Source: a bacterium (lineage in GTDB: Bacteria > Zhuqueibacterota > Zhuqueibacteria > Zhuqueibacterales > Zhuqueibacteraceae). From it: a DNA stretch of 56,557 nt. Positions 10,135 through 34,419 of this stretch are shown piece by piece. A program made the translations under genes and the position numbers. The DNA lies in assembly GCA_044869275.1 (NCBI GenBank), contig JBIOXB010000096.1:1-56557 (forward strand), written 5' to 3'. Each line of letters begins with the position of its first letter. Within the stretch, counting starts at the first letter, position 1. Under the pieces are notes generated by a model. That model ran no database searches. It saw only the letters and a program-made list of their open reading frames with translations, and was not told where the DNA came from.

Positions 10135-10177
10135 ACACGACGCCTGCCGCCCCGCGGGACCAATATGAACGAAATTC

Positions 10178-11111: not shown

Positions 11112-11121
11112 GTTGTCCTCC

Positions 11122-14022: not shown

Positions 14023-17000
14023 TTACGACCATTGCTCCAACTGCGTCTTCGCTTCTTGCAGATCTGCCGTATCAAAACCTTCGGTGAACCAATTGTAAAC
14101 GTCCGACAGCAATTGCCGCGCTTCGGTTTTTTTATTCTGTTGCTGCCAAAGACGGCCCAGGCTCATGGCCGCGCGCAGCTCCAGCGACTTGGCGTTCTGC
14201 CGCTGTGCAATCTTGAGCGCGTGCTGAAAACACGCTTCTGCCTCTGCTTCAGTTATTTCTTTTTGCTCTTTGCTTTTTTCTTTTTGCTTCACCAATTCGC
14301 CTTTGAGCCGATACAACTCCGCCTCATAAAAGCGCTCATCATTTTTTTCTACCAGCGCCAACGCCTCGGCCAGCACGGTGAGGCCTTCTTCAGTCTGATT
14401 ATTTTTCCAATGCACCTCGATCAACATTGATAGATGGCAGGCTCGCCACGACGCTGCTCCGGTGGCTTGATAGGCAGCCAAACCCTGGCGCATCTGTGCA
14501 ATCCCCTCCTTGGTCTGCCCTTGCTCGGCCAATGCCCAGCCATGCAGGATATTGCCAAATGTTAACCAGAACGCAAACCCCTGTTCAGCACAGAGTGCAA
14601 CCGTTTCCTTTGCCAACGCGTGGGTTGCTTGGCACTCTCGACGGTGCTGACGGACCATAGCAGCGAAGTTCAAACCACAAGCCAAACTATTGGCATGAGA
14701 CACCTCCCTCGCCAGCGTAATTCCCTCCTGGCTCTGCCCTAGCGCTTGCTCAGGATAGCCAAGCAACCACAGCGTCCAAGCCAAACCGACTCGCCCCAGC
14801 ATTCCAGCATCATGCCCATAAGAATAGGCCAGGGACCGGTGCTGCCGGCTGTCATAAAGAGCAACGATTTGCTTCCAATGCTCAAGGGCCAAATCAAGTT
14901 TTCTCAGACCAAATAAAGGCCAGGCTACAGTTCGATGCCCGACTAAAATTGCAGGGTCTTGTTGGCGCCGGGCCGTACTCAGGAGCTCTTCACCGAGCGC
15001 AAGCGCCTTCCGGTGTTCCCCGTTCACAATAGGAACCGCGCATAAGCCGTAAAGTACCGGGAGGAAATACGGCGTTTCCCCAAGCTGCCGGCACAGCTCT
15101 CGCGCGCGAGAATAAGTTTGTTCGACTTCCGAGGAAGCATAGCCCTTTGTGGCTATCAACACATTGCCCAAAGCGATTTGCAATGTCAGTTCTTGTTCAC
15201 TGCGCTCACGGGTATCCGGCAAGGTCTTGAGTATCTGCAATCCCTTGTTAAGATGCGCCATCGCTTCCACATTCGCCGAACGTTGAATGGCGCGCCGGCC
15301 GGCCTTTTGCCAGTATTCGATCGCTTCTTTTTTCAATCCTGCTTCCGTGTAGTGATGCGCCAACAGTTCCGGTTGCGTTTCGGCAATCTCCGAAAATTTC
15401 GTTGCTAAAATTTCGGCAAATCGCCGGTGATGCTGCTGGCGCGTGCTTTTGAGCAAAGATTCATACGCCGCGTCCTGAATCAAGGCATGTTTGAAAATAT
15501 AGTTCACTTTGGGCAACACGCCTCGGCGGTACAGCAGCTCGGCATTCACCAAACGCGCCAGTTCCTCGTTCAAGGTTTCCTCGTTCAAAGGCGAAACGGC
15601 GTGCAGCCATTCATAAGGAAATTCGCGGCCCAACACCGCCGCCACTTGCGCGACTTCTTTGGCAGTGTCCAAACGATCCAAACGCGCCATCAGCGAATCA
15701 AGCAAAGTGGCGGGAATGGAAAGTTGCATTAACGATCCTCGCAATTCATACTGACCGTCCTTCTCTTTGAGCAGGCCCGACTCTAGCACCGTCTTGGTCA
15801 TTTCTTCCACGAACAATGGGACACCATCGGTTTTGCGGGCGAGGTGATTGAGCACTTCATCCGGCAATGCCTTTCCTTTCGTTACCCTCCCGACCATGTT
15901 CTCAATCTCCATGCGCGACAAGCGGCTCAGCGTGAGGTAAGTCCGATACGAGCGCATCTCCCATGGCGGCGTAAAAGTTGGACGAAAGGTAAGCAGGATG
16001 CATAGTCTGGTCGTTGGCGCCTGATCGATCAACATCTTGAGCAGATCGAGGGTGGAAGGATCACTCCAATGCACGTCCTCCATCACAAAGAGCAGCGGCT
16101 GCTGGCCGGCGCGGGTCAACAGCAGGGCGAGCAATGCTTCGAGGGTCTTTTGTTTTTGCTGTTGCGGGGACAGATTGAGGGGAGGGTAATTCTCGTTGAG
16201 CGGAATCGACAACAGCGTGGCAAAGAGCGGCACGGTTTCCGGCAGGCCCAGTCCATACTGCACTAAAAAGCCTTCGAGCTTGCGCAATTTTTCCGGGCCG
16301 GCCTCTTCGGCCTCAAATTGCAGCACCACTCGTTCGAGCAATTCGATGAAGGGATAAAGGGCGCTGCTCTGATGGTAGGGCGAACAGAAGCATTCGGTCA
16401 ACCAAGCTTTGGGGTTGGCCGCCACGTATTCTTTCAGTTCCTGCACCAGCCGCGATTTGCCAATGCCGGCTTCGCCGCTAAGTAAAACCACCTGCCCATT
16501 TCCTTCGACCACCTGTTCCCAGCGTTCCTGCAACATGCCGATTTCTTTCGCGCGACCCACCAACGGCGTCAAGCCCGTGACTCGCGCAGCGTCGAGACGG
16601 CTGCGGGCCGCGCTGGCATAAAGCACTTGATACAGAAGCATCGGCTGCGCGAGACCTTTTATTACCTGCGTGTCCAAATCACGGCAATCAAAGTATCCCT
16701 CGACCAACCGGTAGGTGGCCTGGCTGATCACGAGTGCACCGAAATCAGCCAGGTTCTGCAACTGCGTCGCGAGATTCGGCGTCTCGCCGACAAGCGCCTG
16801 CCCCTGTTCACTTTTGTCTCCGGCAACCACCACACCGGTGTGAATGCCGGCGCGGGCAAACAGCTTGAACCCTTTTTCTCGTTCGAAGCGGAGATTCATT
16901 TGCCGCAACCCTTCGAGAATCCCGAGTCCGGCATGCACGGCGCGGCGGTCGTCATCTTCGTGGGCATGGGGATAGCCAAAATAGACTAAAAGAACATCGC

Positions 17001-18024
17001 CGAAAGACTGAATGATCTGCCCTTCGTAGCGGGCAATGACTTTGGCGCACAGCGCCTGATACGCCGGCAACAGCACGTGGAACTCTTCGGGATCGAGCGG
17101 TTCCGAATGTAATGGCGAAGCGACCAGATGGCACGACATCACCGTCACCTGGCGGCGCTCGGGTGTTGATACAGCAGATTTGGTCGACGGCTTCTCCGGA
17201 GTTTTCCCCGTCTTTTCTTTTTGCAAGCTCTTCAAGTCTGCCAATATCTCCATTGCAGCTTGATACCTGGTGCTGACCTCCTTTTGCAGAGCTTTTTCAA
17301 CGATCATTTGCAATGCTTCCGGAACATCAGATCGATATCGTGCCAGTGGCTCAGGATCTTCGTGAACAATCGAGTACATCATCGCGGCTTCGTACTCACC
17401 GCGAAACGGCAGTTGACCGGCGAGCATTTCATACAGCACCACACCGAACGACCAAATGTCGGTGCGATGATCGATCTCTTCGCCCCGCGCCTGTTCCGGC
17501 GACATATACGCCGCGGTGCCGAGTGTCGTGCCGGTTTTAGTGAGATGCACATCGCCAATCTTGGCCAACCCGAAATCCATGATCTTCACTTGCCCAGATT
17601 CCGTCACCATGATATTGCTAGATTTGATATCGCGGTGGATAATACCCTTCGTGTGCGCGGCTTTCAGCCCCTCGACGATTTGTGTGGCGTAGGCGAGGCA
17701 ATTATCAATTGACAATTGAGAATTGGCAATTACCAATTGTTTCAACTCCCGCCCCTCGATAAATTCCATCACCATGAACATGTCATCGTCGATTTCCTCG
17801 ATGGCATAAATCGTGGCGAGGTTGGCGTGGTTCAGCGCCGCCGCGGCCTGCGCTTCGATTTTGAAACGCTCGCGCTCTTCGGCGCTGGCGGCAATGTGTC
17901 GCGGCAGAAATTTGATCGCGACCTCGCGCTTGAGCTTGGTGTCTTCGGCTTTGTAGACGACGCCCATTCCCCCTTCACCCAACTTTTCTAGTATCCGATA
18001 ATGTGAGATTATTTTTCCAATCAT
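14023..18024 (-). CDS. Ser/Thr kinase K2: kinase + class III cyclase-like domain + STAND AAA ATPase + TPR (TOMM kinase/cyclase fusion-like)
   Basis: Intact kinase motifs; ERRQVTVM..., GIHTG, VGETPNLA; LVGR, Walker A GEAGIGKS, Walker B VMEDVHW, GVPLFVEE, FKHALIQDAAYESL; C-terminal ELRAAMSL...WFTEGFDTADL. Confidence 0.92.
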   Translation of the reverse strand: MIGKIISHYRILEKLGEGGMGVVYKAEDTKLKREVAIKFLPRHIAASAEERERFKIEAQAAAALNHANLATIYAIEEIDDDMFMVMEFIEGRELKQLVIANSQLSIDNCLAYATQIVEGLKAAHTKGIIHRDIKSSNIMVTESGQVKIMDFGLAKIGDVHLTKTGTTLGTAAYMSPEQARGEEIDHRTDIWSFGVVLYEMLAGQLPFRGEYEAAMMYSIVHEDPEPLARYRSDVPEALQMIVEKALQKEVSTRYQAAMEILADLKSLQKEKTGKTPEKPSTKSAVSTPERRQVTVMSCHLVASPLHSEPLDPEEFHVLLPAYQALCAKVIARYEGQIIQSFGDVLLVYFGYPHAHEDDDRRAVHAGLGILEGLRQMNLRFEREKGFKLFARAGIHTGVVVAGDKSEQGQALVGETPNLATQLQNLADFGALVISQATYRLVEGYFDCRDLDTQVIKGLAQPMLLYQVLYASAARSRLDAARVTGLTPLVGRAKEIGMLQERWEQVVEGNGQVVLLSGEAGIGKSRLVQELKEYVAANPKAWLTECFCSPYHQSSALYPFIELLERVVLQFEAEEAGPEKLRKLEGFLVQYGLGLPETVPLFATLLSIPLNENYPPLNLSPQQQKQKTLEALLALLLTRAGQQPLLFVMEDVHWSDPSTLDLLKMLIDQAPTTRLCILLTFRPTFTPPWEMRSYRTYLTLSRLSRMEIENMVGRVTKGKALPDEVLNHLARKTDGVPLFVEEMTKTVLESGLLKEKDGQYELRGSLMQLSIPATLLDSLMARLDRLDTAKEVAQVAAVLGREFPYEWLHAVSPLNEETLNEELARLVNAELLYRRGVLPKVNYIFKHALIQDAAYESLLKSTRQQHHRRFAEILATKFSEIAETQPELLAHHYTEAGLKKEAIEYWQKAGRRAIQRSANVEAMAHLNKGLQILKTLPDTRERSEQELTLQIALGNVLIATKGYASSEVEQTYSRARELCRQLGETPYFLPVLYGLCAVPIVNGEHRKALALGEELLSTARRQQDPAILVGHRTVAWPLFGLRKLDLALEHWKQIVALYDSRQHRSLAYSYGHDAGMLGRVGLAWTLWLLGYPEQALGQSQEGITLAREVSHANSLACGLNFAAMVRQHRRECQATHALAKETVALCAEQGFAFWLTFGNILHGWALAEQGQTKEGIAQMRQGLAAYQATGAASWRACHLSMLIEVHWKNNQTEEGLTVLAEALALVEKNDERFYEAELYRLKGELVKQKEKSKEQKEITEAEAEACFQHALKIAQRQNAKSLELRAAMSLGRLWQQQNKKTEARQLLSDVYNWFTEGFDTADLQEAKTQLEQWS

Positions 18025-18049: not shown

Positions 18050-18139
18050 TCAATTTATTGTACTCTTACTGAAGGAAGACATGCCGCCTTCGCCGAGCTT
18101 TTCGATGATTTTGTAGTGCGATATGGTCTGGTCGATCAT
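18050..18139 (-). pseudogene. kinase 5'-end copy / leader ORF upstream of K2 (29 aa)
   Basis: [20 protein letters not shown], then a 45-nt insert containing TGA, then ggcgtcgtat (GVVY codons) abutting the K2 ATG. Confidence 0.85.
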
Positions 18140-19200: not shown

Positions 19201-22200
19201 TCATAGGTAGCCCATCTTCTGGGCCAATTCTAAAGCTTGATTAAGGTTTGTACATGTTTCTTTTGCATCACCTCCTTGCCATGTATGAATTGCTTTTTCC
19301 AGAACCGCCGTTAGCGCCTCGGGCACTCGCATCATTTGCGAGGAGTCCAGCAGACCACGCGCGTAATCAATCGCTTCGGAGATTTGATCTTGAGTGATGG
19401 ACACACCGATTAACGGCCAGAGTGCTGTCCAGCGAAAGGCGGTGCTCGCATGCCCGGCTGGTAATTGTTGCCAAGTCTCAAGAGCAGCCTGCCCGTTCTT
19501 ATTCACCTCTGGTAAGTTCCCTTCACGCCATGCCGCCCAGGCCATATTCGCTTTGGCTGTGGCGAGGTATTCAATCATCTGGCCTGAGGACGCGATGGCC
19601 TCGCAGCGCGGAATATATTGCCGGACTTTTTCTAATTCACCGCGCTTTCTGTAAACGACAGTCAAATAGGTCAAGCAACGCGATTGCAGAACCACGTCAC
19701 CCGTTCGCTCCGCCAATTTCAAGGACTCTTGCAACTGTTCCTCCGCTTCATCCAAATCGTCGCGCCATAACAAACTAAAACCAAGCAAAAAATGCGACAT
19801 GCCGAGCGAGTTCAAATTTTTCGACTCGCGGCTTGCTGATAATGCGGCTCGAGAATGCGCTATGATCTCATCTGAAATCACATAGCGAGAGCGCCTATAA
19901 CCCATCAGCGTGAGGCCATTGAAAAACCTAGCGCGCTGAGCCGGATTGCCGTACTGTTCCACAGCAGGCCTGACCTTTGCTGCTAGCGCATTCATTTCAA
20001 CCAACTGCGCTTGCCAATAGTGCATCCAAATCCGCTCGGCCTGGGCCTCGATCCATTCGTGCCACCAATCCCCGGAATGTTGCTCCTGCTCTGGTCCAAG
20101 CACAGATTCGGCCAGTTTGTAAGTTTGCAAAGCTTCATCAAATCGTCGTTGCACCTCAAAGGTTTTGCCCGTCTTGCGGTAAAGACGCGATTGCCAGATC
20201 AAATCATGTTGCGGAACCTGGGTCAAAGCCTCTTGATATGAAGCTCGGGCTTCTTCATGCCGTCCGGTTGGCGCTTGTGCATCACCTAAACCTTCGAGAA
20301 TTTGTGCCGTCAATTCCTGGCGCTGTTCCGGTTTGGTTTTGGGCCAAGAAGCTTGCTTGATCAAAGCCAATGCCTGTTGGTAGTGTGCTATCGCTTCTGC
20401 ATTCGCATAAACTTGTCGCGCCTGTTTCGCGGTCTTGATCATATAATCAACGGCCTTTTCAGCAATCCCGGCGTCACGAAAATGCCGCGCCAGGTGGACG
20501 GCGATCTCATCGGCATGTTCGCCATACAAGTTCTCCAACACCGTTCCCACTTCCTCGTGGAGATAGGCCCGCTCAATTTCATCCAGACTGTTGTAAAGGT
20601 ATTTCTGGAATAAGACATGCCGGAACCGATACAACGACAAACGCCGGCCATTCATTCGTTGAATGCCCTGGGCGCTCACCAGGTTATGATGCTTCTCCAA
20701 ATCAGCGCTCAACAGCCGGATCATTTCCATCTCGTTTGTTCCATGCAGCCGGGCCACAACCTCGGCAACGAATTCTTCGCCTTCTACGCTGGCTGTGACC
20801 AACACTTTCCTCAAGTTCTCCGGCAATCGCTCAATGCGTTCGCCGACCACGGCATCGACCCGCGCCGGCAGGGTATTCCAGTTCAAAGCCGGGCCCTCGA
20901 TCCACATTCCCTCCTGATCCCGAACCAACACGCCCTGTTCCTGCATGCCATGAAGCAGTTCAACGGTGAAGAGGGCATGTCCCTCGGTTTGTTGAAAGAG
21001 CGTGTCACGAAATGAGGCGCTCACCCGATTCGGTTCCGTGTCAATAAAAGCGTTGATGAAATGGCGGCCTGCAGCCTGATCCAGTTCTATTTTAAAATCA
21101 CCGAAGAGTCCCTTGAATTCATTAATAACGGATGCCAGAGGATGTCGCTCACCGCTTCGTCCCAAAGCGACTTCAGTCGGCCTGTACGTGCCCACAATAA
21201 GAATGCGATCGCGCTCGATTCTCCGGCCCAAATGAAATAGCAGGCTGATCGAACCTGCATCGGCCCATTGCAGATCGTCCAAAACCATCAGCACAGGTTG
21301 CAGGCGTGACAATGTTTGCAGTACCGTGGTGAATTGTTTGAAAAGGTCGCTTTGCTGGAGATGGGAAGCGGGGGATGCGGAGGTCTTACCTTCCACCTGT
21401 TTTTTCAAACGGGTCAACCAGCTTGCTCGGCTGGAAGTAAAAGCAACGGCGCGTTTGAGTAGCGCCTCACCGGGCACAAATGTCCCAATCAGGTCGGAGC
21501 CGGCATCTACCAGCGCTGGCATTGAAAGCGGGAGAAAATTCCACAGGCGCGTGGCATGCTCTTTGGTGATGGCGCCTGCCGCCCACATCGCTTCAACCTC
21601 GCCCGTCAGCATACCGAGGAGGTCACGGAATGGGAGATAAGGATCGCCGATGCCGGTATGGGCATCGCTTTTTCCACCCGCCACGATCAGGTCAGCGTGC
21701 CTCTTTTGCGCGAACTGCTCGAAGGCCCGGATCAAGGTTGTCTTGCCACTTCCAGCTTCGCCGGTGATGAAAACCATCTGGCCCTTTCCGCTCAACGCCA
21801 AATCGAGAAATTTATCCAATCTCGCCAATTCATGTTCACGGCCTATGCAAAAAGGCTCGTGCTCCTCCACCATCGCTCTTTCGCCTGCGACAAAGGGCGC
21901 CGGGATATCAGGTTGTTCTGCGGAGATACCAGTTTCAAAATTTTTCGTTATCGCATGCAACGCGAGGCGCATCTCCTCCACGTGCTGATAGCGTTCAGCC
22001 CTGTCCTTTGCCAAAGCGGTACTCACCATGTGTTCCAATTCCGTTGGCGTCTCGGGACGCAGAGATAATAGCGATTCCGGTTCTTCATGCACGATCGCAT
22101 ACATGATCGCCGCTTCGTACTCGCCGCGAAACGGCAGTTGGCCGGCGAGCATTTCATACAGCACCACGCCAAACGACCAAATGTCGGAGCGATGATCAAT

Positions 22201-22749
22201 TTCTTCGCCCCGCGCCTGTTCCGGCGACATATACGCCGCAGTGCCGAGTGTCGTGCCGGTTTTGGTGAGATGCACGCCGCCGCCGATCTTCGCCAAACCG
22301 AAATCCATAATCTTGACCTGACCGGATTCCGTCACCATAATATTGCTGGACTTGATGTCGCGATGAGTGATCCCTTTCGTATGCGCGGCCTTCAACCCCT
22401 CGGCGATTTGCGTAGCAATGTTGATGACCCAGTCCACTGACAACTGACCACTGGCCACTTTCTTTTTCAGTTCTTCGCCCTCGATGAATTCCATCACAAT
22501 GAACAGATCATCATTGATTTCTTCGATGGCGTGAATCGTGGCGAGGTTGGGGTGGTTCAAAGCGGCCGCGGCTTGTGCTTCGATTTTGAACCGTTCGCGT
22601 TCTTCGGCACTGGCGGCAATATGCCGCGGCAGAAATTTGATTGCGACCTCGCGCTTGAGCCTGGTGTCCTCGGCTTTGTACACGATGCCCATGCCGCCTT
22701 CGCCGAGCTTGGCGAGAATCCCATAGTGGAGGATGGTTTGGCCGACCAT
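19201..22749 (-). CDS. Ser/Thr kinase K3: kinase + STAND (AAA_16, MalT-like) ATPase + TPR
   Basis: Intact kinase motifs; CIGREHEL, Walker A GEAGSGKT, Walker B VLDDLQWAD, TEGHALF, YRFRH, LARHF; long TPR C-terminus; no TM. Confidence 0.92.
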   Translation of the reverse strand: MVGQTILHYGILAKLGEGGMGIVYKAEDTRLKREVAIKFLPRHIAASAEERERFKIEAQAAAALNHPNLATIHAIEEINDDLFIVMEFIEGEELKKKVASGQLSVDWVINIATQIAEGLKAAHTKGITHRDIKSSNIMVTESGQVKIMDFGLAKIGGGVHLTKTGTTLGTAAYMSPEQARGEEIDHRSDIWSFGVVLYEMLAGQLPFRGEYEAAIMYAIVHEEPESLLSLRPETPTELEHMVSTALAKDRAERYQHVEEMRLALHAITKNFETGISAEQPDIPAPFVAGERAMVEEHEPFCIGREHELARLDKFLDLALSGKGQMVFITGEAGSGKTTLIRAFEQFAQKRHADLIVAGGKSDAHTGIGDPYLPFRDLLGMLTGEVEAMWAAGAITKEHATRLWNFLPLSMPALVDAGSDLIGTFVPGEALLKRAVAFTSSRASWLTRLKKQVEGKTSASPASHLQQSDLFKQFTTVLQTLSRLQPVLMVLDDLQWADAGSISLLFHLGRRIERDRILIVGTYRPTEVALGRSGERHPLASVINEFKGLFGDFKIELDQAAGRHFINAFIDTEPNRVSASFRDTLFQQTEGHALFTVELLHGMQEQGVLVRDQEGMWIEGPALNWNTLPARVDAVVGERIERLPENLRKVLVTASVEGEEFVAEVVARLHGTNEMEMIRLLSADLEKHHNLVSAQGIQRMNGRRLSLYRFRHVLFQKYLYNSLDEIERAYLHEEVGTVLENLYGEHADEIAVHLARHFRDAGIAEKAVDYMIKTAKQARQVYANAEAIAHYQQALALIKQASWPKTKPEQRQELTAQILEGLGDAQAPTGRHEEARASYQEALTQVPQHDLIWQSRLYRKTGKTFEVQRRFDEALQTYKLAESVLGPEQEQHSGDWWHEWIEAQAERIWMHYWQAQLVEMNALAAKVRPAVEQYGNPAQRARFFNGLTLMGYRRSRYVISDEIIAHSRAALSASRESKNLNSLGMSHFLLGFSLLWRDDLDEAEEQLQESLKLAERTGDVVLQSRCLTYLTVVYRKRGELEKVRQYIPRCEAIASSGQMIEYLATAKANMAWAAWREGNLPEVNKNGQAALETWQQLPAGHASTAFRWTALWPLIGVSITQDQISEAIDYARGLLDSSQMMRVPEALTAVLEKAIHTWQGGDAKETCTNLNQALELAQKMGYL

Positions 22750-23757: not shown

Positions 23758-23888
23758 TGATGCTGCGACACAAGCTTTAATGCGACGGTGCGCTTGAACT
23801 TGGTGTTCTCGGCTTTGTACACGACGCCCATACCGCCTTCGCCGAGTTTTTCGAGGATACGATAGCGCGAAATTGTTTTGCCGATCAA
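23730..23888 (-). pseudogene. truncated Ser/Thr kinase (first ~39 codons)
   Basis: TTG start overlapping the K4 stop (TTGA): [38 protein letters not shown], then runs into a REP palindrome. Confidence 0.85.
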
Positions 23889-26203
23889 TTTTCTAACTCC
23901 AATTTTTTTAGCAGAGCTTGAAACCGCGGTTCTGAGTGCAAGGGATCGAAGACGGGGCTTAGTATGAGAACTACAAGCCAAGGTCCATTCCGCTCGAGCA
24001 TGGTCAGTGCCTTCTCCTTTTCATGCAAGCTTACATAAATCTGGGCGATGGCCACGTTTGTGTATTCGCCTCGCTCCAATCGCTCCTTCAATTCCTCAAG
24101 CAACTTCAACGCCCTCTCCCGCTGGCCTGATAAGGCATAAGCGCTGCCAAGATATCCCAAACAATCCAACCTTCCTAAAGCCAGCGCGTCCACCTTCTGA
24201 AGCGTTGCTATAGTTTCATCATAAAGACCCTTCGTGAAATAAGCCATTCCGAGATTACACTGCACTTGGGGAAAATTAGGGTTCAGTTGGAGCGCCTTGA
24301 GGCAGTGCGCAATGGCCTCATCATACTGGCGGTCATAGACGTAAGCCCATGCAACGAAGGCATTCACACTTTCCGAAAGTGGATTGAGATCAAAGGCGCG
24401 AATCATCTCAGCCAATCCCTCCTTCGTCCTGCCCCGTTTAAATAGCCCCCATCCATATTCGCGATGTGCTTCCGCGTTGCCAGGGTTCAGTTCAATTGCT
24501 CGTTTAAATTCCTCCTCCGCGCCGGACCAGTCCCCATCAAGATCCTTTCGGATCACGGCCATCGCGCTGTGGGCTTCGGACAGGGTCTCGTCCAGTTCCA
24601 ACGCCTTCATTGCCGCCTGCCTTGCTTTGACTTCGGCCTCTTCCAGAGGCAGTAAACGCATCATTACTGCCGATGCCAGGTATGGCACAGCCACAGCGGC
24701 GTATGCCTGGGCGAAGTTCGAGTCTATCGCGATCGCCTGCTCGTACTGGTTTAACGCCTGCTGCATACTCTCTTTGGTTTGCTTATCCCAGAAACTCAGT
24801 CCCCAGAGATAATGCTTATAGGCCTCAGGGTCCACAGCTCGGGCTTCTTGTAAGCGCGCCTGCTCCTGAGGCGTCAGCTTGATTTGGATTTCGTGGGTGA
24901 TAGCGAGTGCCACCTGGCGTTGCAGCGTCAATACTTCACGCAGATCGCGCTCATAACTATCTGCCCACAAATGCTGATCGGTTTTTGCTTCGATTAACTG
25001 CGCCGTAATCTGAACCCGGTCTCCGGAGCGCACCACCGAGCCTTCGACAATCGCATCCACGTTCAACTGGCGCGCGATCTCCGGCAGCGACTTCGTCGTG
25101 TTTTTGAATTGCATGACCGAGGTACGCGAAATGACCCGCAAGGCTTTGACTTTGGCCAGTTCGGTAATCACCGCTTCCGTCATACCATCGGCAAAGTACT
25201 CTTGCTGTGGGTCACCAGAAAGGTTCGCGAGAGGCAACACGGCAATCGCATCAAAGGTTTTGCTGCGCTTGGAAAAGAAATAGAGTCCACCGGCGATGAG
25301 TAAAATGAGAAAAGCAGCAATGCCGCCGTAGAGAAAAGTACGCCGTCTTTGCAAGAGATTTGGCTTGATTTTGTTTGCGGATGAAGAAGCACGAGCTTCG
25401 GTGGGAGATTTCAAATCCGGCAGCATGTCTTCAATCTGCCGGTAGCGTGTTTCCGGATTTTTGTCCAAAGCTTTGTCAATAATGTGCTGCAAACCTATTG
25501 AAACCTCGGCCCGGTGGCGGGACAAAGGCTCCGGCGCTTCGTTCACAATGGCGTACATGATCGCCTGCTCATATTCGCCATGGAAAGGCAATTGGCCGGT
25601 AATCATCTCATACAGCACGATGCCCAGCGACCAAATATCCGTACGATGATCTACCTGCTCGCCGCGTGCCTGCTCCGGCGACATATAAGCAGCCGTACCC
25701 AATGTCATACCAGATTTAGTCAGGTGCAGACCGCTGTTGATCTTCGCCAAACCGAAATCCATGATCTTCACTTGCCCCGATTCCGTCACCATGATGTTGC
25801 TAGATTTGATGTCGCGGTGGATGATGCCTTTGGCGTGCGCGGCTTTCAGGCCTTCGGCGATTTGGATGGCGATGTCAATCACACTGCTTACTGGTAACTG
25901 ATCACTGGCCACTTTCTTTTTCAGCTCCTCGCCTTCGATGAATTCCATCACAATGAATATCTCACCATCGACTTCCTCGATGGCATAAATCGTGGCGATG
26001 TTCGGATGGTTCAAAGCAGCCGCGGCCTGCGCTTCGATTTTGAACCGCTCGCGTTCTTCGGCACTGGCGGCGATATGCCGCGGCAGAAATTTCAGCGCGA
26101 CGATGCGTTTAAGCTTGGTGTCCTCGGCTTTGTACACGATGCCCATGCCGCCTTCGCCGAGCTTTTCTAGTATCCGATAATGTGAAATTGCTTTGCCAAT
26201 CAT
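23885..26203 (-). CDS. Ser/Thr kinase K4: kinase + TM + TolB-N-like + TPR
   Basis: Intact kinase motifs; [48 protein letters not shown]; TPRs. Confidence 0.93.
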
Positions 26204-26319
26204 ACACGACGCCTGCCGCTATGCGGGGCCAAGTTATTGTATTTTGCACTGAAGGAAGGCATACCGCCTTCGCCGAGCTTTTCTGAAATTTTGCAGTGAG
26301 AAATGGTTTGGCCGAGCAC
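26200..26319 (-). pseudogene. kinase 5'-end copy / leader ORF upstream of K4 (39 aa, ATGA-coupled)
   Basis: GTG start, [20 protein letters not shown] + 46-nt insert + ggcgtcgtgt; its TGA (26200-26202) overlaps the K4 ATG. Confidence 0.85.
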
Positions 26320-26455: not shown

Positions 26456-26884
26456 TTAATTCCTCTCTTCATCAACCCATTTGAAAAGATATTTCTCGTC
26501 GTATTCCACGGCGAATTTCTTGAGCATCTCCAGATATTCATCTTTGAACGTCTTCTTTGCATGGTGCTTTTCCTGATCCTGAACATATTTCGCCACCGCG
26601 TCGATTTGTGAGTGCCCGTATGAAAATGCGCCGAATCCTTCCTACCAATTGAATTTTCCCCGAATCCATTTCTTCTCGTTGATGAATGCTGATGAATTGT
26701 TTTTGATATCGCGGGTCAAATCGGACAGCGCTATGCCCGGTTTTATGTCTATGAAAATATGCGCATGAGCTAGAATGCTGTTGATACCGAGTAATTCTTG
26801 CTTTTCACTCCGAATGATTTCGGCGATATATTTGTACAGTTCTTCCTTCTGCTCTTTTGGGAAGAGACTTTGCCGCCCTTGCAT
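26456..26884 (-). pseudogene. tnpA: IS200/IS605 TnpA (Y1 HUH) or RAYT-like transposase pseudogene
   Basis: QGRQSL...ELYKYI...AHAHIF...SDL.RDIKNNSS.FINEKKW..GKFNW*EGFGAFSYGHSQ...YV..QE.HH.KKTFKDEY...YLFKWVDE. In-frame TAG at 26642-26644; N-terminus missing. Confidence 0.85.
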
Positions 26885-26992
26885 CGCGACCCCGCGCTTG
26901 AGCCTGGTGTCCTCGCTTTGTACACCACGCCTATACCGCCCCTTCGCCGAGTTTTTGAGAATGCGATAGTGCGAGAATGTTTTATCGATCAC
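26885..26992 (-). pseudogene. degenerate, frameshifted kinase 5'-end fragment fused to the tnpA remnant
   Basis: gtgatcgataaaacattctcgcactatcgcattctc..aaaactcggcgaagggcggtataggcgtggtgtacaaagcgaggacaccaggctcaagcgcggggtcgcg aligns to MIDKT.SHYRIL.KLGEGG.GVVYKAEDTRLKR.VA. Confidence 0.8.
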
Positions 26993-27098: not shown

Positions 27099-29753
27099 TC
27101 AATTTCTCTTTTTTAGCTCCGCCATCCAGTTTACCACGAGCGTAATCGACGAAGATGTTTTCTTCTCAGTAACCGAATTGACAATGAAATGTATGCCATC
27201 ATCGGAAACATCATAATTGAGAGCCACTGTAGTCGGACGGGTCTGAAAAAGCGGTCGGGCATCATCAATTTCCATTTTAGAACCTCTTATATGGATTCTA
27301 GTGGCCATAATTGTGTTGTCGTTGCTCAGATAGAAGATTTCCTTTCCATCGCGCCGCCAACGAGGGCGTGTACCGCCAGCAGTTGAAATCTGCCACTTGC
27401 CACTCGGCCCAGGGAACGGCCGCACATATACTTCTTTTTGCTCGGTTTCATCGGAAACGTAAGCGATCCACCGTCCGTCCGGAGAAAAATAAGGATAGAG
27501 CTCATCGCACTCCGCTCGCAAGAATGGGATAGGCTTTCGATCTCCAAACAGCGGCAAGACCCATACGTCCGAGCGTGTCTTGGGGTCACCGTAAGTAACA
27601 TATGTGATAAATCTCCCGTCCAATGACCAGTCGAAAGGTTGCTTGTTCTCCTTTGACTCAAAAAAAATCTCTTCACTGCCGGCGCCACTCGCGGCTATCT
27701 GATAAAGATCAAGCACTGCTTTCCGACTTGACTGAAAAACGAGGCGACTTCCATCGGGAGACCAGACCGGAAATCTATCACCACTAGGGTTAAATGTTAG
27801 GCGAGTCCTGGCATCGCGCGCCAATTCGTATACCCAAATGTCATTTTGACGCGATTGCGGATCAAAGAGGTCCACGGCAATTCGCTGCGCATCGGATGAA
27901 AAACGAATCCCGGTGTAATAGCCAATTTCGCCGACCGACCGTATCAGCTTACCGCTCTGGTCGAAGATGAGGAGTTTTGAGCCGGCTTGATTAGCGCTCA
28001 GCAGATAGGCCAGCATTCCATTCTGTGAGACGGAAAAAGTTGCCAAATCAATCATGGTCGCGCCATAGTGAACCTGTTCTGCAATTGGAATGGTCTCGCC
28101 ATCAAGCATAAGGGTATTCAAGTCAAGCCGCTGTGCTATGAGCGTGCCATTGCGATGAAAAAGCAGATAGCCCGAGGCATACGCCATGTTAGATGAGGCG
28201 CGCACCAGAAGCTTATTCACTTTCAAATCCAGCGAGGCGACATAGATGGCATTGGATTCACCTAGAGCGCCGATATTAGAGGTTAGGTTGAAATAGAGAA
28301 AATGTTTTCCATCAGGCAAGAAGCAGGGCCAGCGATGTGCGATTTCCTTGCGCGCTGTATCAAGTGTTGTGAGAGCAGTTGTCTTGCCTCCTGCTGCCGG
28401 AACGAGATAAAGGGGGCCAGGATAAGTCGGGGTAAAAAGGATCATATCATCTTTGCTCCAGGCCCCGCCCCGTGCATCTGGTGCATCGCTAATTGTGAGA
28501 GGAGGGCCGCCCGCAGCCTCGACTTTTTTGAGCTTGTTAGTCGCAAAAAATCCAATAAAGCGACTGTCCGGCGACCAGAAGGGATCAGAAGCTCCTTCAG
28601 TGCCGGCAAGCTCGTTGGCGGACATGGCATTGAGAGGTCGAACCCAAAGGTGCGCCTTTCCAAAGGAATCCATCACTGCAAAGGTCAATTTAGAGCCATC
28701 TGGCGAGAGCGCGATCTGCCTTCCAAATCCAAATTGAGTGGTAAATGTCGATTGTTCCGGCAGGGGAATCAAAGTACGGATGGTTGACATCTGCATATGC
28801 GGCTGGCGCAATTCGAGCAATGCGAATGCAGTCAGCGCCAAAAGGAAGCAAAACGTTACAACTATCCAGGGTAGGCGCACGTTGGGTTTGGTCGCCACGC
28901 CAGCCAGAATCTTTGTCGTGGAAAATCTTGATCTGCTCAGGGAGGTCGATTCAATCGTCCGAAAATCCGCCGGCAGCTCATCCACATGCTGATAGCGAGA
29001 TTCCCGATCTTTGACGAGTGCTTTGGCGATGATGCCATCCAATACCACTGGCACTCCGGTGCGCAATGACCTCAAGGGCTGCGGGTTTTCGTGCACAATC
29101 GAATACATGATCGTCTGCTCATACTCGCCGCGAAAAGGTAATTGCCCGCTGATCATTTCATATAACACCACGCCGAGCGACCAAATATCGGTGCGCTGAT
29201 CCACCACTTCCCCGCGTGTTTGCTCCGGCGACATGTAGGCGGCGGTGCCCATCGTCGTGCCTTCCTTCGTGAGCATGGTCCCGCCGCGCGCCAATTTGGC
29301 CAGGCCGAAATCCATGATCTTCGCTTGCCCTTTTTCCGTGATCATGATGTTGGCGCTTTTGATGTCGCGATGCGTGATGCCTTTTTCATGCGCGGCTTGT
29401 AAACCCTCGGCAATCTGCGTGGCAAGTTTTATCGCCTCCGCGATCTTCAACGGCCCAGCCTCGATCTTCTCCCGCAAGTTCTGGCCTTCGAGGTATTCCA
29501 TCGCAATAAACATTTGGCCGTCGACTTCATCGATCTCGTGGATGGTACAAATGTTCGGATGATTCAGCGCTGCCGCAGCCTGGGCTTCGCGGTGAAAGCG
29601 ATTCTTCTCCTCATTGCCGAGCGTGATCGCCGAGAGAAACTTCAGCGCGACGATGCGCTTGAGCTTGGTGTCTTCGGCTTTGTATACGACGCCCATGCCG
29701 CCTTCACCGAGTTTTTCTAAAATCTTGTAGTGTGAAATCGTCTTGTCGATCAT
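27099..29753 (-). CDS. Ser/Thr kinase K5: kinase + TM + TolB/PD40 beta-propeller
   Basis: Intact kinase (HRDIKSAN, DFG); TM; repeated SPDG/WSPD motifs; ends LVVNWMAELKK. Start MIDKTISHY at 29753. Confidence 0.93.
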   Translation of the reverse strand: MIDKTISHYKILEKLGEGGMGVVYKAEDTKLKRIVALKFLSAITLGNEEKNRFHREAQAAAALNHPNICTIHEIDEVDGQMFIAMEYLEGQNLREKIEAGPLKIAEAIKLATQIAEGLQAAHEKGITHRDIKSANIMITEKGQAKIMDFGLAKLARGGTMLTKEGTTMGTAAYMSPEQTRGEVVDQRTDIWSLGVVLYEMISGQLPFRGEYEQTIMYSIVHENPQPLRSLRTGVPVVLDGIIAKALVKDRESRYQHVDELPADFRTIESTSLSRSRFSTTKILAGVATKPNVRLPWIVVTFCFLLALTAFALLELRQPHMQMSTIRTLIPLPEQSTFTTQFGFGRQIALSPDGSKLTFAVMDSFGKAHLWVRPLNAMSANELAGTEGASDPFWSPDSRFIGFFATNKLKKVEAAGGPPLTISDAPDARGGAWSKDDMILFTPTYPGPLYLVPAAGGKTTALTTLDTARKEIAHRWPCFLPDGKHFLYFNLTSNIGALGESNAIYVASLDLKVNKLLVRASSNMAYASGYLLFHRNGTLIAQRLDLNTLMLDGETIPIAEQVHYGATMIDLATFSVSQNGMLAYLLSANQAGSKLLIFDQSGKLIRSVGEIGYYTGIRFSSDAQRIAVDLFDPQSRQNDIWVYELARDARTRLTFNPSGDRFPVWSPDGSRLVFQSSRKAVLDLYQIAASGAGSEEIFFESKENKQPFDWSLDGRFITYVTYGDPKTRSDVWVLPLFGDRKPIPFLRAECDELYPYFSPDGRWIAYVSDETEQKEVYVRPFPGPSGKWQISTAGGTRPRWRRDGKEIFYLSNDNTIMATRIHIRGSKMEIDDARPLFQTRPTTVALNYDVSDDGIHFIVNSVTEKKTSSSITLVVNWMAELKKRN

Positions 29754-30405: not shown

Positions 30406-30542
30406 AGCAGGATGCTGAAAAAGTCTCGAATTGCTCGAATTCGTCATTCCCACGAACGAGGGAATCCATGATTTTGTTTGATTTTCTGGATACCCGCTTT
30501 CGCGGGTATGACATCGAAAAGAGTTTTTCAGCATCCTGTTAG
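30406..30542. mobile_element. MITE-like element: 15-bp terminal inverted repeats enclosing a REP-like pair
   Basis: CAGGATGCTGAAAAA (30408-22) ... TTTTTCAGCATCCTG (30524-38); inner gtcattcccacgaacgagggaatcca / tggatacccgctttcgcgggtatgac. Confidence 0.7.
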
Positions 30543-30593: not shown

Positions 30594-33230
30594 TCACTTG
30601 CCGGTTGGAACTTTACGTTTCAACTCTTCGAACCAGTTGAGCACAACGTTTATGCGCGTCAGCCGCTGCCGCTCTACGGGCTTAACGATGACAAAGCGCT
30701 CGCCATCAGCAGTGATATCGTAGAACCCGCTAAAATAGGGATCTAGGTATTCCTTATCAAAAAGCAGATGCGGACGCTCCGCTTTGAATGCCGGCGCGGT
30801 TGAAACCTCGACCGCCATCATTTTGGTGCCATTGCGATAGACGATTTCGCGGCCAGCCCGCGACCACCGCGGCGAACCCCCGCCATCCGCGGAAATCTGC
30901 CATTTTGCGCTTGAGCCGGAAACCGGCTGGACATAGACCTCGGACCGTCCGGATTCGTTTGATTCGTACACCAACCAGCGGCCATCCGGAGAGAACTTCG
31001 CTCCATGTTCATCAAAGGCGGTCTGGAGGAAAGGCCGGGGCTTCCGTTCGCCTTCGAGCGGAAGCAGCCAGATATCCGCACCATTCTTGGCACTCCCCTG
31101 GGTGAAAGCCAGCAGATGGCTGTCCGGTGCGTACGAAGTAGGGATCTGCGCAGCTTCGCTCGTGGTCAGCCTTTCAATGGTTCCGCTGCCATCTGCTGGA
31201 GTGGCGTAAAGATTGTCTACGCCATTACGATCAGAAGTGAAGGCGATCTTTTTGCCGTCAGCCATCCAGATCGGATTCCAGTTTTCCGCCTCGAAGGTGA
31301 GGCGCGTCTGCGTATCACGATCCAAATCGATGAGCCAGATATCGTCATCCATCGCCGCAATCTGCACGGCGATGTGCCGCCCATTAGGAGCGAAGCTGAG
31401 TCCTTCATAGAGTGCTCGTTTCTGGCTGATCCGTTGAGGTTTCCCGGATCGATCGGCAAGCATAAGTTCGTTAAGCACTATGCCTTCACTGCCAGGCAGA
31501 TAGATCAATGTGCCATTGTCGGAGCACGCGGATTGCCAGGCCGGGACGCCAGAGAGCACTTCGACCGGAGTGCCTGTCACTCTTAGCCCCTTGAGATCAA
31601 AGGGGACTGCAAGTAGAGAGCTCGACCGGCCAAACAGCAGATGCCCGGTTGACACATAACGGCCGCAAAGTCCTCCTTCCACCAACACGTGCCTCTTGCC
31701 GCTGGCAAGCGACTGCACAACGATGGTGAGTTCATTGGAAGACCTGCCCGAGTTTTCAGTGGTAAAGATGACAGACTGGCGATCTGGGAGCATCTGTGGA
31801 AACATGTGGTTGGCTTCCTTCTGCGTGCGGTCAAGCTCGAGGAATGGTTGCGGCACACCACCGTCAGCTGACACCCGCGCGAGACCTGTAGTAAATCCCG
31901 GCGGAAAAATGATGGTGTTGTCTGGCGACCAGCTCGCGCCGTGGCCGCCAGAAGCATCGCAAATCGTGAGGGCGGTTCCACCGTGGATGGAAATCTTTTT
32001 GAGCTTGTTGGACACACGGAAACCGATCCACTTTCCATCGGGTGAAAAGAATGGAGCGTGCGCGCCTTCAGTCCCGGGAAGAGGTGTGGCCTCAAGCTGA
32101 TCCAATGGACGCAGATAGAGAAGGCGAGAACCAGCGCTGTCAGCAGTGTAAGCCAAAAGACGGCCGTCGGGCGAAATGGCGACTTTCAGAATGAACTGAC
32201 CCACAAATTCATGGCCAGTAGGAAGATCGAGGTTGAGCCGAACCAATGGCTTGGGAAGCGAGGTGACGGGACGCAGCCATTCCCACAGAGCAGCGCCAGC
32301 CCCGATGGAGGCCACGATGAGGCCAACGAGAATCGAGAAGAACAGTTTTCCTGAGCGTATCAGAGGCGAAAGGGTAATCGCGCCAGCCGGCGTCGCCAAT
32401 TTCATTGAGGTATCGCCAGGCTTAGATTCAATTGCTCGCAAATCCGCCGGTATTTCATCCACATGCTGATAGCGTAAGGTCGGATCTTTGGCCAGCGCCT
32501 TGGCAACGATACTGTCCAAGGCGAGAGGCACACCCGTGCGCAAAGCCGTCAATGGCTGCGGGTCTTCGTTCACAATCGCATACATGATCGCCTGCTCATA
32601 CTCGCCGCGAAAGGGCAATTGCCCGCTGATCATTTCATACAACACCACGCCGAGTGACCAAATGTCGGTACGCTGATCCACGGCTTCCCCGCGTGTTTGC
32701 TCCGGCGACATGTAAGCGGCAGTGCCCAGCGTCATGCCTTCTTTCGTGAGCATCGTCCCGCCCTGCGCCAACTTGGCCAAGCCGAAATCCATGATCTTCA
32801 CTTGGCCTTTCACTGTGATCATGATGTTGGCGCTTTTGATGTCGCGATGCGTGATGCCTTTCTCATGCGCGACTTGTAAACCCTCGGCAATCTGCGTGGC
32901 AAGTTTGATCGCCTCCGCGATCTTCAGCGGTCCAGCATTGATCTTCTCCCGCAAGTTCTGGCCTTCGAGGTATTCCATCGCAATGAACATTTGGCCGTCG
33001 ACTTCATCGATCTCGTGGATGGTACAGATGTTCGGATGATTGAGCGCTGCCGCAGCTTGGGCTTCGCGGAGAAAACGGCTTTTGTCTTCGGCGCTGAAAG
33101 TCGTGATTGAAAGAAATTTCAGCGCGACGATGCGCTTGAGCTTGGTGTCCTCGGCCTTGTACACGATGCCCATCCCGCCACGGCCTAGTTCTTCCAGAAT
33201 GCGATAATGAGAAATCAGTTTACCGATCAT
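30594..33230 (-). CDS. Ser/Thr kinase K6: kinase + TM + TolB/PD40 beta-propeller
   Basis: Intact kinase motifs; TM; SPDG repeats; ends VVLNWFEELKRKVP. AAGGAG RBS, start MIGKLISHY at 33230. Confidence 0.93.
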   Translation of the reverse strand: MIGKLISHYRILEELGRGGMGIVYKAEDTKLKRIVALKFLSITTFSAEDKSRFLREAQAAAALNHPNICTIHEIDEVDGQMFIAMEYLEGQNLREKINAGPLKIAEAIKLATQIAEGLQVAHEKGITHRDIKSANIMITVKGQVKIMDFGLAKLAQGGTMLTKEGMTLGTAAYMSPEQTRGEAVDQRTDIWSLGVVLYEMISGQLPFRGEYEQAIMYAIVNEDPQPLTALRTGVPLALDSIVAKALAKDPTLRYQHVDEIPADLRAIESKPGDTSMKLATPAGAITLSPLIRSGKLFFSILVGLIVASIGAGAALWEWLRPVTSLPKPLVRLNLDLPTGHEFVGQFILKVAISPDGRLLAYTADSAGSRLLYLRPLDQLEATPLPGTEGAHAPFFSPDGKWIGFRVSNKLKKISIHGGTALTICDASGGHGASWSPDNTIIFPPGFTTGLARVSADGGVPQPFLELDRTQKEANHMFPQMLPDRQSVIFTTENSGRSSNELTIVVQSLASGKRHVLVEGGLCGRYVSTGHLLFGRSSSLLAVPFDLKGLRVTGTPVEVLSGVPAWQSACSDNGTLIYLPGSEGIVLNELMLADRSGKPQRISQKRALYEGLSFAPNGRHIAVQIAAMDDDIWLIDLDRDTQTRLTFEAENWNPIWMADGKKIAFTSDRNGVDNLYATPADGSGTIERLTTSEAAQIPTSYAPDSHLLAFTQGSAKNGADIWLLPLEGERKPRPFLQTAFDEHGAKFSPDGRWLVYESNESGRSEVYVQPVSGSSAKWQISADGGGSPRWSRAGREIVYRNGTKMMAVEVSTAPAFKAERPHLLFDKEYLDPYFSGFYDITADGERFVIVKPVERQRLTRINVVLNWFEELKRKVPTGK

Positions 33231-33319
33231 ACTGAATTTCTCCTTTGCCTGCGGGACAAGTCGCCGCCTTCGCCGAGCTTGGAGAGGATGTGATAGTGCG
33301 AAATTGTTTTGCCGATCAT
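33227..33319 (-). pseudogene. kinase 5'-end copy / leader ORF upstream of K6 (30 aa, ATGA-coupled)
   Basis: MIGKTISHYHILSKLGEGGDLSRRQRRNSV*; TGA 33227-33229 overlaps the K6 ATG. Confidence 0.85.
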
Positions 33320-33715: not shown

Positions 33716-34237
33716 ATGACAGTGGAACGCGCGGGCGCGGTGACGCTGGACGGCATTCCCTTGACGTTGGTAGGACCAGAGCTGAAAGCCGGCGGCAAAG
33801 CCCCGGCGTTTAGGGTGATGGGCAATGATTGGAAGACGGTGCGCTTCGACAATTTCGGCGGCAAGCCGACGTTGATTTCTTCCATCTTGTCGGTGAGCAC
33901 CAGTATTTGCGAGGCTGAAATCAAACGCTTCAACGCAGAGGCCGGCAAGTTTGGTGACCGAGCGCAGTTTTTCACCATCAGCACGGATCTGCCCTGCTCG
34001 CAAGGCATCTGGTGCGGCAGCGCCGGCGTGAAGAACGTGAAAACGTACGCGGATCATATGGAGACCAATTTCGGCCTGGCGTATGGCGTGTTGGTGAAAG
34101 AGATTCGCGCCTTGTCGCGTGCGATCTTTGTGATCGATCCCCATGGCAAGGTCGCTTATGTGGAATATGTGGCGGAGATCGGTCATCATCCGAATTACGA
34201 ACAGGCACTGGCAGCGATAAAAAAGCTGGCAGTTTAG
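33716..34237 (+). CDS. tpx: thiol peroxidase (Tpx-type peroxiredoxin), atypical motif
   Basis: VTL.G.PLTLVGPELK.G.KAP.F, T..C, RFN.EA, S.DLP..Q..WC, FG.AYGVL.KE.R.LSRAIFVID, YVEYV.EI..HPNY. Confidence 0.85.
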   Translation: MTVERAGAVTLDGIPLTLVGPELKAGGKAPAFRVMGNDWKTVRFDNFGGKPTLISSILSVSTSICEAEIKRFNAEAGKFGDRAQFFTISTDLPCSQGIWCGSAGVKNVKTYADHMETNFGLAYGVLVKEIRALSRAIFVIDPHGKVAYVEYVAEIGHHPNYEQALAAIKKLAV

Positions 34238-34419
34238 GCGATTAGCTTTTCAAAGTCAGAATAGAATTCCAACTTTTTATCGCCAACGGATAGATTAACA
34301 CCAACTGATAAAAAGACTAAGAGTTTCATCCGTTGGACTTAATCTATCCGTTGGAGCCGCCCGCAGGGCTTCGGTTTTCATCCCGACCCTTCGGGATGAA
34401 AATCCGAGGTAACTTTTAG
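34234..34419 (+). repeat. composite structured element, copy 2 (TTAG-bounded)
   Basis: ~120 bp nearly identical to 40421-40542 (ccaacggatagattaa...ttaatctatccgttgg IR) plus the two-hairpin tail; starts at the TTAG that contains the tpx stop and ends in TTAG. Confidence 0.8.

What the first reader, a model, noticed from the sequence alone, without database searches (positions are those of the whole stretch)
26200..26319. Self-derived leader ORFs: a copy of the kinase's first ~20 codons whose stop overlaps the real start
Seen: upstream of K4 (26200-26319) and K6 (33227-33319) is a short ORF encoding M/V-x-G-x-TISH-x-x-I-x-x-KLGEGG that then diverges, and its TGA overlaps the kinase ATG (ATGA). 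K2 has the same kind of leader (18050-18139, stop ~25 nt before the ATG), and K1 keeps the last ~30 nt of one (10135-10164). K1, K2 and K4 have no obvious Shine-Dalgarno sequence. Inference: either the leaders provide translational coupling or attenuation, or they are scars left when an incoming kinase gene integrates at the Gly-rich-loop codons of the resident one. Recurrence at four of six genes argues against chance.
Basis: partly seen in the sequence, partly recalled or inferred. Interest (0 to 1): 0.8.

Follow-up and report, generated by a model that had tools for sequence, protein, structure and literature searches.

The report
Stranded kinase starts kept as leaders
In this bacterium and its relatives, small hairpin insertions cut protein-kinase genes after their first 20 codons, a new gene start behind the insertion rescues the gene, and the stranded old start mostly survives as a short reading frame that ends on the new start and probably hands ribosomes on to the kinase.

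Summary
The leaders are real, on the minus strand. K4 and K6 leaders end in ATGA, K2's stops 25 nt early, and K1 has only a remnant.

Each leader is kinase codons 1-19/20 plus a palindrome-derived insert. In relatives the K4/K2 spacer also occurs inside single kinase genes, and all 5 such copies are broken. The K6-type spacer starts with a box complementary to the downstream gene's Gly-loop codons; it resembles one arm of a genome-wide repeat.

The layout occurs in at least 19 of 167 phylum genomes (7 families) and is scattered over the kinase tree. Of 34 junctions, 23 are in the overlap frame. None of these has an early stop (12.3 open expected by shuffling), while their lengths run from 89 to 221 nt in steps of three.

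Best reading: insertion scars rescued by a new start, spread between paralogs and kept under selection for translational coupling. Both first-reader ideas are partly right, and attenuation is unsupported. Translation is not shown, and K1 and K2 are intact without overlap. The scan noted this layout before on other DNA (kinases, typA, gltX, uvrA).

The parts
26200..26319 (-). K4 leader ORF (type A): GTG start, 39 codons, TGA overlapping the K4 ATG
26260..26319 (-). stranded kinase codons 1-20 (decaying: GTG start, Tyr9 and Leu12 changed)
26214..26259 (-). 46-nt type A insert: pyrimidine box, A-rich stretch, REP-like hairpin
   Evidence: 45/46-nt homologue sits inside single kinase genes in L006, L007, L021
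26204..26213 (-). remnant of kinase codons 21-24; with the hairpin arm it forms the SD-like site of K4
23885..26203 (-). K4, Ser/Thr kinase with TPR, 772 aa
33227..33319 (-). K6 leader ORF (type B): kinase codons 1-19 plus 32-nt spacer, ATGA overlap
33247..33262 (-). type B box, complementary to K6 codons 16-21; resembles the left arm of a multi-copy repeat of this genome
33231..33246 (-). tail with SD (-8.7 kcal/mol), predicted to pair with K6 codons 4-8
33168..33185 (-). K6 Gly-loop codons 16-21 (GGG at codon 19), pairing partner of the box
30594..33230 (-). K6, Ser/Thr kinase with PD40 propeller, 878 aa
18050..18139 (-). K2 leader ORF (type A, 45-nt insert 18079-18035), stops 25 nt before the ATG: not overlapping
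14023..18024 (-). K2, kinase with cyclase-like, AAA and TPR domains, 1333 aa; AT-rich recoded 5' end shared with K1
10135..10163 (-). 3' remnant of the type A module before K1; no leader ORF
7789..10134 (-). K1, kinase with TPR, 781 aa
23759..23888 (-). further kinase 5' fragment (about 43 codons); its TTG start overlaps the K4 stop; followed by REP-like repeats and transposase debris
26860..26992 (-). frameshifted kinase 5' fragment fused to IS200-like transposase debris (26887-26459)
19201..22749 (-). K3, kinase without leader
27099..29753 (-). K5, kinase without leader; closest in the tree to K6 (type B) and to a type A kinase of G008

Best explanation
Origin (inferred from intermediates): the Gly-loop codons 19-21 of this expanded kinase family are a hot spot for small palindromic (REP/MITE-like) insertions, which break the gene. 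The gene is rescued when a second copy of its 5' end comes to lie just behind the insert, by tandem duplication of the 5' end or by recombination with a paralog. Insert and tail supply a Shine-Dalgarno site for the new start. The old promoter, start codon and first 19-20 codons stay in front as a short ORF. Spread (inferred): the module has kinase homology on both sides, so recombination moves it between paralogs, multiplies it in tandem or deletes it. Maintenance (conservation shown, mechanism inferred): ribosomes still enter at the old start. Versions whose leader stays open and stops on the new ATG are kept, because these ribosomes melt the local hairpin or the box:Gly-loop stem and reinitiate on the kinase. 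The leader peptide itself is probably incidental.
For: Insertion-only state of the type A spacer in L006, L007, L021, the second fragment of L003 and the second unit of L274: 5 of 5 broken genes. L274 holds a leader unit and an insertion-only unit in tandem; L282 and L283 are A/B hybrids. An unrelated MITE sits at the same codon 19/20 junction with its own rescue start in L206. The repeat family TCCCGC-n-GCGGGA has 200 strand matches against 9.3 expected; one subfamily's right arm equals the Gly-loop codons GGC GGG ATG and its left arm matches the box. Frame: 23 of 34 junctions are 2 mod 3 (binomial p 4.5e-5; 19 of 30 with one vote per genome and length, p 7e-4). All 23 stop within -2 to +4 nt of the ATG; 0 of 23 have an early stop, against 9 and 10 of 23 in the other two frames and 12.3 open expected by shuffling. 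Their lengths take 10 values from 89 to 221 nt. Junctions not in that set: 8 of 13 overlapping (read by eye). SD of -5 kcal/mol or better: 23 of 29 starts behind leaders against 32 of 83 leaderless starts (p 2e-6). Downstream ORF intact as far as seen: 15 of 19 in the overlap frame against 4 of 10 others (p 0.051). GGG at codon 19 goes with leaders: 16 of 44 against 1 of 29 sampled controls (p 0.0013). Cognate box:target duplex averages -22.0 against -20.2 +/- 0.35 kcal/mol for permuted partners, n = 23. Type B leaders need 8 changes for 9 rows on the kinase tree, no better than shuffled labels (quick tree).
Against: No translation or expression data. K1 (no leader) and K2 (stop 25 nt early) are full-length, and 29 of 49 GGG kinases have no leader, so overlap is not required. 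The leader's own start has no SD at K2, K6 and C195 (-0.9, +1.3, -1.0). Start-site occlusion is higher behind leaders (10.5 against 8.2 kcal/mol, p 0.005) but not beyond shuffled upstream sequence (p 0.30). Whole-region folding z-scores are +0.9, +0.95 and +1.8. No insertion-only state of type B matched the pattern in 167 genomes, so its origin is less direct. Junctions are related, so the p-values overstate. The insertion-only copies could be secondary deletions between the 10-nt repeats rather than ancestors. The box pairing may simply be inherited from the repeat's two arms.
Confidence: 0.55

Rival explanations
1. Neutral debris: one or two old insertion events happened to leave the -1 frame, and the module is copied by gene conversion in a fast birth-and-death gene family with no selection on translation.
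For: Arrays are full of 5' fragments with breakpoints at many other codons, followed by unrelated genes. 11 of 34 leaders are in other frames. K1 and K2 are intact without overlap. Leader codons show more amino-acid change than intact pairs (nonsynonymous/synonymous codon ratio 0.86 against 0.65).
Against: Diverged spacers change length in steps of three and carry 0 early stops in 23, where about 11 are expected; SD enrichment; cognate pairing.
Confidence: 0.2
2. A dedicated regulatory switch: the duplicated Gly-loop codons give the box two alternative partners (its own leader or the kinase coding region), so ribosome speed on the leader sets kinase translation or transcription.
For: The box can pair locally with the leader's own loop in several loci (-10 to -14 kcal/mol) and with the downstream copy (mostly -17 to -28). 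The pairing extension changes with the downstream codons in L163, L190, L197 and L201. Some loci hold relays of 2-3 leaders.
Against: No conserved specifier codons seen in the 34 leader peptides, no Rfam family, no excess structure at the start site, and the module is gained and lost freely.
Confidence: 0.13
3. Site-specific cassette exchange: whole kinase genes, or a hairpin-bounded start cassette, are inserted by an enzyme (HUH/Y1 transposase-like) at the Gly-loop codons of a resident kinase, leaving its 5' end behind.
For: The breakpoint is fixed across 7 families. The same upstream context carries different kinase bodies (K4 against L004/L215), and one context is seen with and without a leader (L198 against L199). 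IS200-like transposase genes or debris lie inside the arrays.
Against: No excised or joined form of a leader among the joints listed (contigs only, 12 joints not shown). The array transposase is flanked by a different repeat type. Homologous recombination is enough to explain the spread.
Confidence: 0.12

Closest known systems
Translational coupling / termination-reinitiation at ATGA overlaps (PMC6728339, abstract and outline read; PMC12548453, passages read)
   Same: Short ORF whose stop overlaps the next start, an SD inside the upstream ORF, and possible RNA structure around the start.
   Different: Here the upstream ORF is a truncated copy of the downstream gene's own start, made by an insertion; coupling itself was not measured.
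REP / MITE / Rickettsia palindromic element insertions into coding sequences (PMC3184786, passages read)
   Same: Small G+C-rich palindromes, abundant in the genome, found inside kinase 5' ends, often in frame; Y1 transposase genes nearby.
   Different: The insert sits at a fixed codon of one gene family and is followed by a second gene start; in type B one arm appears to be supplied by the coding sequence itself.
Integrative elements that carry a replacement end of their target gene (recalled, not from a call)
   Same: The target gene is cut at a fixed site and reconstituted, leaving a displaced fragment.
   Different: Only 30-60 nt of new DNA, no integrase gene and no cargo.
Synthetic bicistronic design (seen as search listings; first named to me by earlier finding e1-2782011)
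   Same: A short leader cistron holds the SD of the target and ends on its start.
   Different: Natural, derived from the gene itself, and mobile among paralogs.
Tandem inversion duplications (recalled; search listing only)
   Same: Direct copy, inverted remnant, direct copy; the K6 spacer resembles a deleted reverse complement of the K6 5' end.
   Different: The box keeps the same G.U-type departures from a perfect inverted copy across families, which points to shared ancestry rather than fresh foldback.

Membership tests
Translationally coupled gene pair | Stop of upstream ORF overlaps or abuts downstream start | tested here: met
   K4 and K6 yes, K2 no; 24 of 34 junctions within -2 to +4 nt
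Translationally coupled gene pair | Upstream ORF under selection to stay open and in frame | tested here: met
   0 of 23 with early stops against about 11 expected; lengths vary in steps of three; junctions are related
Translationally coupled gene pair | Inhibitory structure at the downstream start (RNA-unfolding type) | tested here: inconclusive
   predicted at K6; no excess over shuffled upstream across 29 loci
Translationally coupled gene pair | Downstream translation depends on upstream translation | not testable with these tools
   needs reporters or ribosome profiling
Leader-peptide attenuator | Conserved specifier codons or arrest peptide | tested here: not met
   non-kinase parts of 34 leader peptides share only box-encoded residues (by eye); no Pfam match for the K4 and K6 leaders
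Leader-peptide attenuator | Terminator/antiterminator pair | not tested
   no terminator scan was run; no Rfam match at E <= 1 in 9900-34500
REP/MITE-derived insertion | Empty and filled site known | tested here: met
   type A: ordinary kinases lack the insert, L006/L007/L021 carry it between codons 20 and 21; not found for type B
REP/MITE-derived insertion | Element is multi-copy elsewhere in the genome | tested here: inconclusive
   the hairpin core is a 200-match family, but the whole 45-nt unit was found only at kinases
REP/MITE-derived insertion | Cognate transposase acts on it | not testable with these tools
   Y1_Tnp homologues are present; specificity unknown
Integrative element with target reconstitution | Integrase, att sites and cargo between displaced and restored gene ends | tested here: not met
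   spacers are 32-56 nt in the window, leaders at most 221 nt in all; no gene lies between

The most novel reading that the evidence does not exclude
A minimal selfish 'start cassette': a split REP-like hairpin whose right arm is written in the kinase's own Gly-loop codons and whose loop carries an SD and a replacement gene start. It homes into kinase paralogs across a phylum without killing them, and turns each host gene's old start into a ribosome-dependent RNA switch (leader translation opens a long-range stem). It would be a general route by which small repeats create self-derived uORFs.
Probability: 0.2. Interest if true: 0.8.

Novelty: new variant of a known kind. Interest (0 to 1): 0.58.

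Why it matters
It shows, with intermediates, how a damaging repeat insertion can be turned into an upstream ORF that is kept in frame across a phylum. That is a testable route for the birth of bacterial uORFs and of translational coupling. It also points to the conserved 5' end as a recombination anchor in large kinase arrays of uncultured bacteria, and it warns annotators that these 30-40 codon kinase look-alikes are neither small kinases nor assembly errors. If coupling is not real, the finding reduces to a recurrent insertion hot spot.

Tried and rejected
Assembly artefact: rejected for K2 and K4. The K6 leader is not among the pieces listed there, but it is matched by C195 and relatives.

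Expression: no RNA holder listed. Excision or phase variation: no joint skipping a leader among those listed; contigs only, 12 joints not shown.

Leader as an internally deleted upstream kinase that keeps its 3' end: the tails did not resemble kinase C-termini by eye, although such 5'+3' deletion scars exist (L005).

Start-codon sequestration as a general rule: not significant against shuffled upstream sequence. Global folding stability: not above shuffles. Type A box pairing with the recoded downstream loop: only 0-4 kcal/mol better than with ordinary kinases in 8 loci, no test run. Peptide function: leaders and intact genes do not differ significantly at free positions (0.096 against 0.072 rare residues per site, p 0.18), so this neither shows nor excludes constraint.

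Type B insertion-only state: 0 of 167 genomes with one pattern. Known RNA family: none. A DNA-level scan for duplicated starts missed the known leaders and was discarded; it was replaced by the protein-level scan.

Across those loci and the 17 loci, 30 had a kinase-start profile hit. In one search, G077 (2 matches) and G038 were false positives. The homologous-protein database was not searched with a leader peptide, so leaders outside this phylum are known to me only from a few metagenome contigs. The careful tree did not finish; the quick tree was used, with 75 of 119 starts (those with 255 aa or more visible).

Full report
OBSERVATION. The window holds six Hanks-type Ser/Thr kinases in one minus-strand array. 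The described leaders are present: K4 26319-26200 and K6 33319-33227 end with TGA overlapping the kinase ATG. The K2 leader, 18139-18050, is in another frame and stops 25 nt early. K1 keeps only the last 29 nt of the K4/K2 module. Contigs assembled independently from public runs cover the K2 and K4 leaders without differences. A DNA profile of 17 intact kinase starts found one more leader in the genome (C195, spacer identical to K6 over 31 nt) and two further 5' fragments in the window, both followed by IS200-like transposase debris. A protein-level scan of 7220 long ORFs gave 8 duplicated-start hits, 4 of them kinase leaders, so in this genome the feature is largely kinase-specific. A titled record returned (Ca. 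Zhuqueibacter, L023/L024) carries the same type A module, which suggests the KSB1/Zhuqueibacterota group (inference).

TYPE A (K4, K2, K1). The spacer is not random. In L006, L007 and L021 the same 45-46 nt lie inside a single kinase gene between codons 20 and 21, and the last 10 nt of the K4 spacer are kinase codons 21-24. All 5 insertion-only copies seen are broken genes. L004 carries two tandem copies of the insert, and L274 has a leader unit directly followed by an insertion-only unit. The insert ends in a hairpin of the TCCCGC-n-GCGGGA family, which has 200 strand matches in the genome against 9.3 expected; the whole unit was found only at kinases. Hairpin arm plus codon 21 form a GGAGG-type SD about 8 nt before the new ATG in 4 of 6 relatives' modules; it is weaker in the window. 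The type A junction pattern matched 15 of 167 phylum genomes, 13 of them true matches, in 4 families.

TYPE B (K6). After codon 19 comes a conserved box, then a variable tail with an SD, then the new start. The box is complementary to codons 16-21 of the downstream gene, with G.U pairs at fixed places. Downstream genes mostly use GGG at codon 19. Of 46 GGG kinases in the phylum search, 44 had enough upstream DNA and 16 had a leader. Of 29 control starts, taken from 30 loci of 246 non-GGG matches, 1 had a leader (Fisher p 0.0013). A few other non-GGG kinases with leaders turned up in other searches (L162, L219, L264, L283), so the link is not absolute. Boxes pair better with their own downstream gene than with permuted partners (-22.0 against -20.2 +/- 0.35 kcal/mol, n = 23; 3 loci without a box were left out and one box was mis-anchored). 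A multi-copy repeat of this genome has the box as its left arm and GGCGGGATG, the Gly-loop codons, as its right arm, so type B looks like a split repeat with a replacement gene start in its loop (inference). No unsplit type B insertion matched my pattern in 167 genomes. L282 and L283 join a type A 5' part to a type B tail, linking the two types. L206 shows an unrelated MITE at the same codon boundary, followed by codons 20-24 and a new start, and is not overlapping: a separate origin of the same layout.

IS IT SELECTED? Among 34 distinct junctions from 20 sources, 23 have a leader-to-ATG distance of 2 mod 3, 8 of 1 mod 3 and 3 of 0 mod 3 (p 4.5e-5; 19 of 30 with one vote per genome and length, p 7e-4). 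All 23 stop within -2 to +4 nt of the ATG. None has an early stop in the spacer, whereas the other two frames have stops in 9 and 10 of 23 and shuffling expects 12.3 to be open. Their lengths are 89, 92, 95, 98, 101, 113, 116, 122, 161 and 221 nt; five of the seven 1 mod 3 lengths are one base shorter than one of these. Of 13 further junctions read by eye, 8 overlap and 5 do not. Downstream ORFs are intact as far as visible in 15 of 19 overlap-frame cases and 4 of 10 others (p 0.051; 5 junctions dropped, 4 leading into another leader and 1 too short). Starts behind leaders have stronger SD sites (23 of 29 against 32 of 83). Against: K1 and K2 are full-length without overlap; 29 of 49 GGG kinases lack a leader; opening energy at the start is not above shuffled controls (p 0.30); regional folding z-scores are positive; three of the four leaders in this genome lack an SD of their own; and related junctions inflate all p-values. 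One junction (L002/L212) and one array map rest on G014, which is flagged unpublished; the type A count of 13 and the total of 19 genomes include it.

MOBILITY. Leaders were seen in at least 19 of 167 phylum genomes in 7 families and on a few metagenome contigs. On a quick tree of kinase residues 41-265 (75 rows), type B needs 8 changes for 9 rows and type A 6 for 7, not below shuffled labels. K6 (type B), K5 (none) and a type A kinase of G008 form one tight group. Some loci carry relays of two or three leaders. L198 and L199 share an upstream context with and without a leader, and K4 and L004 share one but carry different kinase bodies. The module therefore moves or is lost independently of the kinase body; flanking homology makes recombination sufficient (inference).

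MECHANISM. Shown: the anatomy, the insertion-only intermediates of type A, the frame and openness bias, SD enrichment, cognate complementarity and scattered distribution. Inferred: order of events (insertion, then rescue), spread by gene conversion, and translation of the leader with reinitiation or unfolding at the kinase start. Both coupling models are described in PMC12548453 (passages read), and strict coupling in 13 of 14 tested overlapping pairs is reported in PMC6728339 (abstract read). In-frame insertion of small repeats into genes is reviewed in PMC3184786 (passages read). I put 0.55 on scar plus selected coupling, 0.2 on neutral debris, 0.13 on a dedicated switch and 0.12 on enzyme-driven cassette insertion.

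NOVELTY. Eight answered paper searches aimed at this layout or its parts and one on bicistronic design listed no paper describing self-derived kinase leaders, judged from listings; the library lacks most subscription papers, and no supplements were read. The scan itself noted the same layout before on other DNA: kinases in two other groups and typA, gltX and uvrA in CPR bacteria (unchecked AI notes, not used as evidence). Both ingredients are known kinds; their combination in one mobile module is a new variant. Interest 0.58.

Noticed in passing
window 26887-26459 and 23666-23562 (-): Two broken IS200-like (Y1_Tnp) transposase copies inside the kinase array, flanked by a CTCCGTAGGAG-type repeat found only on this contig (5 matches); an intact copy sits at the matching place in G008 (L215), and a 36% homologue lies on C190.
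   Followed up: partly
L004, L212, L215, L151, L168, L173, L197, L263, L264: Other small palindromes are inserted, often in frame, after kinase codon 9 or codon 15, so the first 25 codons hold at least three insertion hot spots.
   Followed up: partly
L008, L011, L018, L020, L213, G000 C241:16514: Kinase 5' fragments of 10-94 codons lie directly in front of unrelated genes; in L213 one overlaps the next gene's start by ATGA.
   Followed up: no
window 18024-17960 and 10134-10070 (-): K1 and K2 start with an AT-rich, synonymously recoded 5' end shared with type A genes in other genera, while K4 has the ordinary codons back from about codon 14: a likely conversion tract.
   Followed up: partly
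G000 C129:37400 (-): A 799-aa gene, probably an ABC permease (recalled from its N-terminus, no family search), is preceded 176 nt upstream by a decayed copy of its own start that is not overlapping.
   Followed up: no
window 10260-13964 (-): A three-gene cluster resembling a CO dehydrogenase/xanthine dehydrogenase-type molybdoenzyme (recalled from the translations, no family search) lies between K2 and K1; its insertion may have removed the K1 leader.
   Followed up: no
window 30486-30541 and 34234-34411: High-depth repeats in the laid runs (depth 90-137 against about 10), i.e. multi-copy palindromic elements of this genome.
   Followed up: no
L058, L101 (metagenome contigs): AT-rich genomes carry a third leader type (97-98 nt) whose box is a different palindrome arm, pairing with GGC GAA GGC GG of the downstream gene.
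   Followed up: partly
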